Shown here piece after piece: positions 12,001 to 15,000 of a DNA stretch of 23,995 nucleotides. The DNA is from a virus (lineage: Duplodnaviria; Heunggongvirae; Uroviricota; Caudoviricetes). A program made the position numbers. The stretch lies in IMG/VR virus record IMGVR_UViG_2534681697_000018, positions 1 to 23,995 of that record; one strand, given 5' to 3'. Each line of letters begins with the position of its first letter. Position 1 is the stretch's first letter.

Positions 12001-15000
12001 CGCCGCATCCGGCGTGGATGTGGGCCGCGTCATACGGCGCAACGGCAGCGTATCACCTTGCCATTGACCCGGCGCGTCCGCTTCAGACGCTGGTCCTGAC
12101 CGGCATTCTGCCGCCTGCGCGTAATGTTCGCTGGGATATGCCGGAACGTAACCTGCTGCTGCATGACGGCATTGCCACGCACATGGTGGACGCCGGGGAT
12201 AACGTCTGCATCGAGCGTGAAATCACCATGTACCGGGTTAACCAGTACGGTGATGCGGATGTGTCGTATCTTGATGTGCAGTCACCCGCCACGCTGGGCC
12301 GTATCCGTTACATCATTAAAAACCGTTTCTCGAACCGTTATCCGCGCCACAAGCTGGCGGATGATGACGTGCTGGACTCGCTGGATGCGGGGCAGCCGGT
12401 GATGACGCCGAAGCTGTGCACTGCAGAGCTGCTGGATATCTGCCAGACCGAACTTCTCCCGGCGGGCCTTGTGGAAAACTTCAGCGATTACAGGGACACG
12501 CTTCAGGTGACACGCGACAGCAGCGATAAAAACCGCCTGAACTTTATCTGCCACCCGAATCTGGTGAACCAGTTGCGTGTGCTGGCAGGCCTGATTCAGT
12601 TCAAGCTTTAAGGGGGCCACATGGCAAAAATTCTTGGCATGGCGACCATTCGCGTGAATGGCCGCGAAATTAAAACCGAGGGGAAATCCACGCTGAATCC
12701 GGGCGGCTTCAGCCGCACCCAGCATATGGGCGGCGGCAAGGTCTGGGGTATCTCCAGCAAGATGGCCTCGCCGTCCATCAAGGTAACCATTGCGGCGGCA
12801 GCGGATATGGACGTGATTGAAATCAGCAGCTGGGAAGATGTCACGGTGATGTTCTACGGCGACAACGGCCTGAACTACATGATGACGGGTTCCGCCACGG
12901 ATAACCCGGCAGAGCTGGACGAGGATTCCGGCACCATCAGTGCCAACTTTATCGGTGAAAAATGCGTGAAGGTGTGACATGGCCGCAATGGAATTTGAAC
13001 TGAAACACGGGCTTCTGACCGGCAAAGGCACGGCAGATGAAACCCTGCATAAAACCGTGAAACTGCGCGAACTGACCGCCAGTGATGTGATTGATGCGCA
13101 ACTGGCCGCAGAACGCGTCGTCATGGGCGGGAACGGAAAGGCGGTGGCCTACTGTTCTGAGGTGCTGATGGGACTGGAGATGATGCGCCGTCAGGTTGCG
13201 TCAATCGGTAATATCCCCGGCCCGCTGGACATGAAACAGCTGCGAATGCTCCACCCGGCAGACCTTGAGCTTATCAGCACGAAAGCGGCTGTGCTGGATG
13301 ACATGCTTGAGGAGGTGGCAACGCGGGGGCGAACTGATGCCGCTGGCGGCGGCACTGATGAACCTGCTGGTTAACCTGTCTTCGCGATTCAGCATTCAGT
13401 ACCTGGAACAGCTGCCCCTGCGGCAGCTGTTCCGCCTGATAAAGCAACTGGAGAAACAGCATGGCAACAGGTAACCGTCTCAGCACGGAAATCATGATCA
13501 ACCTTGCCGGGAACCTGACCGCCAAAGCCCGGCAGTACGGTGCAAACATGTCGCAGTTCGCCCGGAACAACCAGAAAGCCATGCGCCTGGTCAAAGCCAC
13601 AACGGAGGCTGCCGGGCGCAGTCTGGATGCGCTTGGCAACCGCTACACGGCGATGATTGCCGGGTTCGGTGGTGGTATGACCCTTAAAGGCCTGACAGAT
13701 TTTGATGCGCAAATCCGCCGTGCGGGTACAAATGCAAAACTGACCGATGAGCAGGTATCCCGTTTAAGAAAAAACATCCGGGAAACCGCCAGAATGTCAG
13801 ACATTCGCCTCAGTGCCCAGGTCTTACTGGAAGGCCAGGATGCACTGTATGGCCTGACCGGTAAGCCGGAATTTGTTGAAAAAAACATCCGCAATCAGGG
13901 GCTGGCCACGCAGGCATTCGGGACTGCGCCACAGGATGCCGCGGCACTGATGGCACAGATGTCCGAAAAACAGATTGAAGCGCCTCAGGAGGTTGAAGGC
14001 ATGTTCGACCGCTTCTACCACCAGTTTTCCATTGGTTCGGTTGGTGTGGATCAACTGGCGCGTGTATCAGCAAAACTGTTTTCGATTTATACCGGTGGTG
14101 GCAAAGAGGCGATGGCCCAGTTGGGGGCACTTGAACAGATGCTGGCAAAAACAACCGGCTCTGCGGATGAAGCGGTGACCGCGCTGAACAGTATCTGGAG
14201 TGAAGTCACCCGAAAAGACAATATCAAGTTTCTGAAAAGAAACGGGGTTGATGTGCTTGATCCTGTCACAGGAAAACCCCGTCTGCCTTATGACGTAATC
14301 AGAGACGTTGTCAGGCGGGCAAAATTTAATGAGCAGAACTTGCAGGATGTTTTCGGGGATACTTCCATGCGTGGATTAAGGGCACTGCTCAGTGAAGACG
14401 CCCTTCAGCTAACAGAAAAAATGATTTACGCCCCGGTTGAATCCGGTGCCATGAGAAAAGCTGCGGAGAAAAACGCCCGGAGTTTTCAGTCTGCGATGCA
14501 GTCCCTGAAGAATGAATATGAGGTTTTTGCTGAAAAAAATCTGGCAAAACCCGTTCAGGACCTGGCGGATGCCATCAACAGCGTGGACCAGAACTGGTTG
14601 CAGGTCGGTAAATATATGGCAATTGCGCTGGGTGGCATTATCGCCGTACGTAAGACGTACAAGCTCGGTAAAACCATCCACGACATCATGAATCCCAAAG
14701 GGAAAGGCAAAGGGATACCCGGCGGTATTACGGATGTTTTCGGCTCCGGCGTGATGCCGGTGTATGTGGTCAATATGGGCAGTGGCGGGCTGAAGGGTAA
14801 TACCGGCGGTCTGCCGGATGCGCCGGATTCATCGCGCAATCCCCGTAACCCACGCAATCCACGAGGTTCGGGTAACCGTGGAGGAAAGACAGGTAAAGGC
14901 GCTGGCATCATTGCCGGTGCTCTGGAGTTTTACGATTTTCTGACCACGCAATATGCCCTACCAGGTGAGGTTGACAGCCTTACAAAATTCGTTGCCGGTG

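What the first reader, a model, noticed from the sequence alone, without database searches (positions are those of the whole stretch)
14835..14864. Nine-bp in-frame tandem repeat (RNPRNPRNPR) in the tape-measure protein
About 3.3 copies of cgyaayccm lie inside a Gly-rich low-complexity linker of the tape-measure protein. Such repeats are prone to slipped-strand expansion and contraction, and tape-measure length sets tail length, so copy-number variation here would produce small tail-length variants.
Basis: seen in the sequence. Interest (0 to 1): 0.2.

Follow-up and report, generated by a model that had tools for sequence, protein, structure and literature searches.

The report
Short peptide repeat in tape-measure linker
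A real but degenerate three-copy Arg-Asn-Pro repeat lies in a floppy linker of the tail tape-measure protein of a decayed Mu-like prophage; relatives carry one to three copies, but these are old alleles moved by recombination and are too small to change tail length, so the feature is ordinary.

Summary
The repeat is present exactly where stated: 14835-14864 encodes RNPRNPRNPR, in frame, at aa 459-468 of a 614-aa ORF (13461-15305). That ORF is the Mu gp42-type tape-measure protein, judged by gene order, a PHROG match and N-terminal similarity to Mu gp42.

The repeat is clearly non-random as a peptide (0 of 5000 codon shuffles). As DNA it is weak: every third codon position differs, Tandem Repeats Finder does not report it, and 3% of shuffles match it.

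It sits in a 45-residue predicted coil (pLDDT 22-27) inside a stretch that is 27% Gly. The three most hydrophobic segments of the protein flank it. Its 3' edge coincides with a mosaic breakpoint.

Relatives carry 1, 2 or 3 units and never 4 or more. All 2-unit alleles show the same loss of the middle unit. In the closest 2-versus-3-unit pairs, SNPs cluster around the repeat, which indicates imported recombination patches rather than fresh slippage.

One unit would add about 0.45 nm, against a 3.5 nm tube ring in Mu, so no discrete tail-length change is expected. The prophage in this window has also lost its head genes to IS elements.

Verdict: an ordinary polymorphic low-complexity linker, of low interest.

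The parts
13461..15305 (+). Tape-measure protein gene, Mu gp42 type, 614 aa
   Evidence: It lies between the Gp41_Mu chaperone gene (12979-13374) and the DNA_circ_N/gp43 gene (15305-16579). It matches phrog_973 'tail length tape measure protein' at E=3.9e-138. Residues 3-137 match residues 2-134 of PDB 9ki1 chain g, 'Probable tape measure protein', 690 aa, at E=0.0017. The window protein itself has no Pfam or NCBIfam hit.
14835..14864 (+). Degenerate 9-bp in-frame repeat, 3.3 units, encoding RNPRNPRNPR (aa 459-468)
   Evidence: The peptide is perfect; the DNA units differ at every third codon position.
14811..14828 (+). Adjacent degenerate 9-bp repeat, 2 units, encoding LPD APD
   Evidence: The same tract has 4-5 units (LPDIPDIPDIPDLPD or LPDLPDLPELPE) in relatives L023, L180, P0076 and P0077.
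14781..14900 (+). Indel-rich, basic linker (aa 441-480, net charge +6) within a Gly-rich stretch
   Evidence: Residues 411-480 are 27% Gly. AlphaFold2 predicts coil with pLDDT 22-27. Relatives differ here by 9- and 18-bp indels.
14739..14780 (+). Invariant motif FGSGVMPVYVVNMG (aa 427-440) that anchors the 5' side of the linker
   Evidence: These columns are invariant in the 35-sequence and 30-sequence alignments. A weak, non-significant alignment places a similar stretch of Mu gp42 (GIGIQRVFVIN) here.
14898..14948 (+). Hydrophobic Gly/Ala-rich helix GAGIIAGALEFYDFLTT (aa 480-496) on the 3' side of the linker
   Evidence: It is among the top Kyte-Doolittle windows, together with aa 380-396 and 421-437. 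AlphaFold2 predicts a helix at 481-497.
14865..14867 (+). Mosaic breakpoint at the 3' edge of the repeat
   Evidence: Ten E. coli genome records lose DNA similarity at query position 227, which is window 14866. The 597-aa class continues with KTPALVTPQTASGFNLLDMV instead. Identity for aa 481-540 falls from 87-97% in most relatives that share this C-terminal module to 15% in that class.

Best explanation
The feature is a short, degenerate, in-frame tripeptide repeat, (Arg-Asn-Pro)3-Arg. It lies in an intrinsically disordered, basic linker, part of a Gly-rich stretch, in the C-terminal third of a Mu gp42-type tape-measure protein.

On its 5' side is an invariant FGSGVMPVYVVNMG motif. On its 3' side is an exchangeable C-terminal module that begins with a hydrophobic helix.

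It behaves as a length-tolerant spacer. Rare 9- or 18-bp deletions between imperfect direct repeats have produced alleles with 3, 2 and 1 units. Homologous recombination among Mu-like prophages of E. coli, Shigella and Salmonella then carries these old alleles between genetic backgrounds. The repeat edge is also a module junction.

One unit (3 aa, about 0.45 nm) is far below one tube ring, so it does not set a distinct tail length.

Shown: the repeat, TMP identity, coil prediction, allele spectrum, linked-SNP patches and mosaic breakpoint. Inferred: near-neutrality of copy number, the deletion mechanism and the absence of a tail-length effect.
For: - TMP identity.
- The repeat is real as a peptide but weak as DNA.
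- Disorder and composition.
- Allele spectrum among 120 cluster representatives: 3 units in 83 (14 of them perfect), 2 units in 17, the RNPRNS-RN form in 7, a single RNP unit in one (P0073, where the position of the second unit reads RNT), none with 4 or more; the remaining 12 carry other linkers such as (xPD)n. One unit occurs in L019 and L024.
- All nine 2-unit alleles read at the DNA level are CGC AAT CCC CGC AAT CCT CGG (CGT in L179). This is a 3-unit allele such as L009 or L011 minus the middle unit CGT AAC CCN.
- L183 (3 units) versus L184 (2 units): 0 SNPs in nt 1-941, 22 SNPs in nt 942-1479, 1 SNP after that. L185 versus L186: 3 SNPs before nt 1100 and 36 after. These are recombination patches.
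- Stability: identical proteins on 291, 173 and 99 contigs. Twenty-three E. coli records share an identical 421-bp span and score.
- Mosaic structure and the breakpoint at 14866.
- Scale: Mu gp42 is 690 aa for 30 rings with a 35 A rise; 0.145 nm per aa.
Against: - A neighbour-joining tree of the flanks intersperses 2- and 3-unit alleles. That would also fit recurrent independent loss of the middle unit, and recombination and recurrence cannot be fully separated with these data.
- The peptide is perfectly conserved across three units despite synonymous divergence. This hints at some selection on the RNP peptide itself, not pure neutrality.
- No experimental or read-level data were available.
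- The AlphaFold2 model is poor overall (mean pLDDT 49.8), so 'disordered' rests on low confidence plus composition.
Confidence: 0.8

Rival explanations
1. The tract is a slippage-prone microsatellite whose ongoing expansion and contraction changes tape-measure length and so generates tail-length variants.
For: Copy number differs among relatives, from 1 to 3 units. The tape measure does set tail length in tailed phages (PMC5099701; PMC11915804). The 2-unit allele has two nearly identical units, CGCAATCCC and CGCAATCCT, and could slip more readily.
Against: - DNA units in the 3-unit alleles differ at every third position, and Tandem Repeats Finder does not call the tract.
- No allele has 4 or more units.
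- Copy-number differences come with linked SNP patches.
- Identical alleles are spread over hundreds of contigs.
- 3 aa is about 13% of one tube ring, and the region is coil, not ruler helix.
- The prophage here is a headless remnant.
Confidence: 0.07
2. The repeat is a functional basic patch, not a mere spacer. One option is that it contacts the strongly negative tube lumen or the DNA end. Another is that it forms the positively charged loop between hydrophobic helices when the ejected tape measure inserts into the host membrane. Copy number would then tune that interaction.
For: - The peptide is perfectly conserved over three units despite synonymous divergence.
- Residues 441-480 have net charge +6, and the three most hydrophobic segments of the protein flank the repeat.
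- The Mu tube lumen is reported as remarkably negative.
- In a weak, non-significant alignment, the corresponding stretch of Mu gp42 is also Gly- and Arg-rich.
Against: - Relatives tolerate RNS, RKS, RTP, SNP, a final Q, and 1-3 units.
- More distant relatives replace the tract with unrelated sequence (L021, L023, L024, P0076).
- No structural or experimental evidence exists for this region; only residues 674-690 of Mu gp42 are resolved.
Confidence: 0.1
3. Chance resemblance with no true repeat.
For: At the DNA level, 3% of codon shuffles reach the same lag-9 score, and Tandem Repeats Finder reports nothing.
Against: The peptide-level repeat was never reached in 5000 shuffles. Relatives differ by exact whole units of 9 or 18 bp.
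Confidence: 0.02

Closest known systems
Bacteriophage Mu gp42 tape-measure protein (PDB 9ki1 chain g; PMC11915804)
   Same: - Same gene position: after the sheath, tube and gp41 chaperone genes, and before gp43, gp44 and gp45.
- N-terminal sequence similarity, E=0.0017.
- A weak, non-significant alignment places a hydrophobic V-[FY]-V-[IV]-N stretch followed by Gly- and Arg-rich sequence at the corresponding place.
- The C-terminal end is conserved within this family; in Mu the C-terminus binds the hub and spike.
   Different: - 614 aa here against 690 aa in Mu.
- Only the first ~135 residues are detectably similar.
- Mu gp42 has no RNP repeat.
- The window protein gets no Pfam PF10145 hit.
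Tandem repeats of siphophage tape-measure proteins that scale tail length (e.g. the TP901-1 TMP repeats, PMC5099701)
   Same: In-frame repeats inside a tape-measure protein. Whole-unit deletions are tolerated.
   Different: - The TP901-1 repeats comprise 29 units of about 11 aa, in a region the authors infer to be straight and fully extended, where tail length scales at 0.145 nm per residue.
- Here there are only 3 units of 3 aa, in a Pro- and Gly-rich predicted coil near the C-terminal hydrophobic segments.
- The total possible change is 6 aa or fewer.
Low-complexity and homorepeat tracts in tape-measure proteins (PMC13585406)
   Same: A low-complexity, Gly-rich flexible tract in a TMP. [quoted passage not shown]
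   Different: This is a tripeptide repeat rather than a homorepeat. No correlation with tail length could be tested here.
Bacterial simple-sequence contingency loci (phase-variable SSRs; from general knowledge)
   Same: A short tandem repeat in a coding region, with copy-number polymorphism between strains.
   Different: The unit is a multiple of 3, so there is no on/off frameshift. There are only 3 imperfect copies. There is no variation among near-identical records, and the alleles travel with linked SNPs.

Membership tests
Mu gp42-type tape-measure protein | The gene lies between the tail assembly chaperone (gp41) and the tube initiator / DNA circularisation protein (gp43), downstream of the sheath and tube genes | tested here: met
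   Pfam on neighbouring ORFs: sheath 11136-12611, Tail_tube 12621-12977, Gp41_Mu 12979-13374, DNA_circ_N 15305-16579, gp44 domains 16579-17649, Gp45 17640-18176. Collinear at 98% identity with an intact Mu-like prophage of E. coli FDAARGOS_943.
Mu gp42-type tape-measure protein | Sequence similarity to characterised tape-measure proteins | tested here: met
   phrog_973 at E=3.9e-138, and three further TMP PHROGs. PDB 9ki1_g 'Probable tape measure protein' at E=0.0017 over residues 3-137. tblastn hits to genes annotated as tape measure in Shewanella MuM16-2 and Vibrio martha 12B12 phages, 42-43% identity.
Mu gp42-type tape-measure protein | Pfam PF10145 (PhageMin_Tail) domain | tested here: not met
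   The window protein has no Pfam family at E<=0.01. Some close homologues carry a precomputed PF10145 hit. This domain is common in TMPs but not obligatory.
Mu gp42-type tape-measure protein | The protein occupies the tube lumen and its length scales with tail length | not testable with these tools
   This needs virions. The prophage here lacks head genes.
Hypermutable simple-sequence (contingency) repeat | Perfect or near-perfect DNA repeat units | tested here: not met
   Adjacent units are 6/9 and 7/9 identical. Tandem Repeats Finder reports nothing. The longest exact direct repeat is 8 nt, at 18-nt spacing.
Hypermutable simple-sequence (contingency) repeat | Copy number varies among otherwise identical or clonal sequences | tested here: not met
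   The closest 2-unit versus 3-unit pairs differ by 23 and 39 linked SNPs clustered around the repeat. Twenty-three records share an identical span and score. Identical proteins occur on up to 291 contigs. Read-level heterogeneity could not be tested.
Length-setting TMP tandem repeats (TP901-1 type) | The repeats lie in the extended helical ruler part and are numerous enough to change tail length by at least one tube ring | tested here: not met
   Predicted coil with pLDDT 22-27. The maximum observed difference is 2 units (6 aa, about 0.9 nm) against a 3.5 nm ring.

The most novel reading that the evidence does not exclude
The paired acidic (x-Pro-Asp)n and basic (Arg-Asn-Pro)n 9-bp repeat tracts may form a dedicated, length-adjustable joint and a recombination hotspot. 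At this joint, Mu-like prophages would swap the C-terminal module of the tape measure, the part facing the hub, spike or membrane. Unit number would be tuned to match the incoming module or the host envelope.
Probability: 0.08. Interest if true: 0.3.

Novelty: new member of a known kind. Interest (0 to 1): 0.1.

Why it matters
It matters little. The analysis shows that a plausible-looking 'tail-length microsatellite' is an ordinary polymorphic low-complexity linker. Its copy-number alleles are old and move by recombination, and each step is about eight times smaller than one tail-tube ring. The modestly useful by-product is a module map of this Mu-like tape-measure family. The ends and the FGSGVMPVYVVNMG motif are conserved, the centre is hypervariable, and there is an exchange junction exactly at the repeat edge. 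That map could guide chimera design or prophage typing in E. coli and Shigella.

Tried and rejected
- Tandem Repeats Finder at minimum score 30 did not report the tract.
- Megablast of the gene against the phage collection found nothing. Only distant tblastn hits exist there.
- NCBIfam and Pfam gave no hit for the TMP itself.
- The genome-contig scan with the protein returned 30 pattern matches but no relatives.
- The 4-unit DNA pattern CGNAAYYCN x4 was too degenerate. None encodes a relative of this protein. Absence of 4-unit alleles is therefore solid for IMG/VR and only indicative for metagenomes.
- The antisense ORF 14555-14911 has no Pfam family, and Rfam finds nothing in the window. No alternative coding or RNA reading was found.
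- phrog_23801, the best PHROG hit (residues 1-426 of a 580-position profile), has the same length and match boundary as the product of a TMP-gp43 deletion fusion like L003. It was therefore not treated as a distinct protein type.
- A neighbour-joining tree of the flanks could not separate recurrent indels from recombination. The SNP-distribution test was more informative.

Full report
**Observation**

The window reads cgcaatccc cgtaaccca cgcaatcca cga at 14835-14864. This lies in the frame of the 614-codon ORF 13461-15305 and encodes RNPRNPRNPR at aa 459-468.

- The peptide repeat is perfect. In 5000 codon shuffles of the ORF, a run of 7 lag-3 identities never occurred.
- The DNA repeat is weak. 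Every third codon position differs between neighbouring units, giving 15 of 21 lag-9 matches. Three percent of shuffles reach this score.
- Tandem Repeats Finder does not report the tract.
- The repeat finder sees only an 11-nt pair 18 nt apart.
- A second degenerate 9-bp repeat, ctgccggat gcgccggat (LPD APD), lies just upstream at 14811-14828.

**What the gene is**

Pfam assigns the neighbouring ORFs as follows:

| Window coordinates | Assignment |
|---|---|
| 11136-12611 | tail sheath |
| 12621-12977 | tail tube |
| 12979-13374 | Gp41_Mu chaperone |
| 15305-16579 | DNA_circ_N (Mu gp43) |
| 16579-17649 | gp44 hub |
| 17640-18176 | gp45 |
| 18615-19691 | Baseplate_J |

The ORF in between matches the tape-measure family phrog_973 at E=3.9e-138. 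Its first 137 residues match a PDB chain named 'Probable tape measure protein', 9ki1_g, 690 aa, at E=0.0017. It is therefore the gp42-type tape-measure protein of a Mu-like prophage, although it has no Pfam or NCBIfam hit itself.

An exactly identical protein is on record from E. coli and Shigella boydii.

**Context**

The window is collinear at 98% identity with an intact Mu-like prophage of E. coli FDAARGOS_943, but only from window 7810 onward. That point lies just past the major head gene of the intact prophage.

- Upstream there are only IS elements: a DDE_Tnp_1 transposase at 4431-5654 and an IS66-family transposase at 6176-7777.
- A transposase with rve integrase-core domains is inserted at 9773-11038.

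The prophage here is a headless remnant and cannot make virions.

**Anatomy around the repeat**

- AlphaFold2 with a 30-sequence alignment gives a confident helical domain only for about residues 95-340. Residues 436-480 are coil with pLDDT 22-27.
- Residues 411-480 are 27% Gly, against 10% overall. Residues 441-480 carry net charge +6.
- The three most hydrophobic segments of the protein are aa 380-396, 421-437 and 480-496, and they flank the linker.
- The motif FGSGVMPVYVVNMG (aa 427-440) is invariant in all aligned relatives. A weak, non-significant alignment places a similar stretch of Mu gp42 here.

**Relatives**

Identity of relatives to the window protein, by region:

| Residues | Identity to the window protein |
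|---|---|
| 1-100 | 63-100% |
| 101-400 | 16-69% in all but the nearest relatives |
| 401-440 | 92-95% |
| 441-480 | indel-rich |
| 481-540 | mainly two classes: 87-97% or about 15% |
| 541-614 | mostly 90-100% |

The protein is therefore a mosaic.

Repeat alleles among 120 cluster representatives:

| Allele | Number |
|---|---|
| 3 units, perfect (RNPRNPRNPR) | 14 |
| 3 units, degenerate: RNPRNSRNPQ | 41 |
| 3 units, degenerate: RNPRNSRNPR | 17 |
| 3 units, other degenerate variants | 11 |
| 2 units (RNPRNPR) | 17 |
| RNPRNS-RN form | 7 |
| one RNP unit (P0073) | 1 |
| 4 or more units | 0 |
| other linkers, e.g. (xPD)n, no RNP tract | 12 |

- Two viral contigs, L019 and L024, have one unit.
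- A pattern scan for 4 units found no relative in IMG/VR or in the truncated metagenome scan.
- In complete E. coli genomes, a 421-bp probe spans 421 bp in 26 records and 412 bp in 9 records. Seven of those nine are at 88% identity or more.
- Ten further records lose similarity at probe position 227, which is window 14866, the 3' edge of the repeat. This matches the 597-aa class, which continues with KTPALVTPQ....

**How the copy-number alleles arose**

All nine 2-unit alleles read at the DNA level are CGC AAT CCC CGC AAT CCT CGG (CGT in L179). This is a 3-unit allele of the L009 or L011 type minus its middle unit, CGT AAC CCN. One-unit alleles and the RNPRNS-RN form correspond to 18-bp deletions between imperfect direct repeats.

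The closest 3-unit and 2-unit genes were compared:

- L183 versus L184: 0 SNPs in nt 1-941, 22 SNPs in nt 942-1479, and 1 SNP after that.
- L185 versus L186: 3 SNPs before nt 1100 and 36 after.

The unit difference therefore rides on imported recombination patches. It is not a fresh slippage event.

Identical proteins are found on 291, 173 and 99 contigs. Twenty-three E. coli records share one span and score.

A flank tree intersperses 2- and 3-unit alleles. This fits recombination but cannot exclude some recurrent loss.

**Effect on tail length**

- In Mu, a 690-aa gp42 goes with 30 tube rings of 35 A rise (PMC11915804).
- In TP901-1, tail length changes by 0.145 nm per residue in the extended part of the tape measure (PMC5099701).
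- One RNP unit is therefore worth at most about 0.45 nm, or 13% of a ring. The full observed range of 2 units is worth about 0.9 nm.
- The tract is Pro- and Gly-rich coil, not ruler helix.
- Another indel in the same gene, the 4-aa NTVQ gap near aa 377 in this window's allele, changes length by as much.

No discrete tail-length variant is expected.

**Verdict**

The proposed slippage-proneness and tail-length consequence are not supported.

The best reading (confidence 0.8) is a tolerant, disordered spacer at a module junction, with old indel alleles shuffled by recombination. A functional basic patch remains possible (about 0.1). Low-complexity and repeat tracts in tape-measure proteins are well known (PMC13585406). 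This is a new example of a known kind and is of low interest.

Noticed in passing
window 3563-7809 and 9773-11038: The Mu-like prophage is a remnant. Homology to an intact relative starts only at 7810, just past that relative's major head gene. Upstream are a DDE_Tnp_1 transposase (4431-5654) and an IS66-family transposase (6176-7777). A transposase with rve integrase-core domains (9817-10635, minus strand) interrupts the tail module between 9773 and 11038.
   Followed up: partly
L003:2501-4264 (IMGVR_UViG_2531839178_000011): A 1370-bp deletion fuses codon ~421 of the tape-measure gene to the 3' part of the gp43 gene, giving a 580-aa chimera. phrog_23801 (580-position profile, unknown function, best PHROG hit over residues 1-426) has the same length and match boundary, so it may have been built on such fused proteins.
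   Followed up: partly
window 14811-14828; L023:3860-3905; L180: The neighbouring (x-Pro-Asp) 9-bp repeat has 2 units here. Some relatives have 4 units (LPDIPDIPDLPD, LPDLPDLPELPE) or 5 units (LPDIPDIPDIPDLPD). Their DNA units are much more perfect (ATCCCGGAT ATCCCGGAT ATTCCGGAT), and those relatives lack the RNP tract.
   Followed up: partly
window 13761-14660 (aa 101-400 of the tape measure): The central, confidently folded helical domain is the most divergent part among relatives (16-69% identity, with at least three sequence types). Both ends and aa 401-440 are nearly invariant. This is the reverse of the usual expectation that folded domains are the conserved parts.
   Followed up: no
window about 14589 (aa 377/378): This allele, together with L001 and L002, lacks 4 residues (NTVQ) that are present in nearly all relatives: VDQNTVQNWLQ against VDQNWLQ. 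This explains 614 aa rather than 618 aa despite three RNP units.
   Followed up: partly
window 1485-3143 (-) and 495-1523 (+): An OLD-family ATPase/TOPRIM nuclease (DUF2813 plus OLD-like_TOPRIM, 552 aa) lies next to a DUF535 protein, just outside the IS and prophage region. It may be a defence gene.
   Followed up: no
window about 13337-13474; L183:177-314: In relatives, a 45-aa ORF is called that bridges the chaperone gene's 3' end and the tape-measure start. It may be the frameshift extension of the gp41 chaperone, analogous to lambda G/GT.
   Followed up: no
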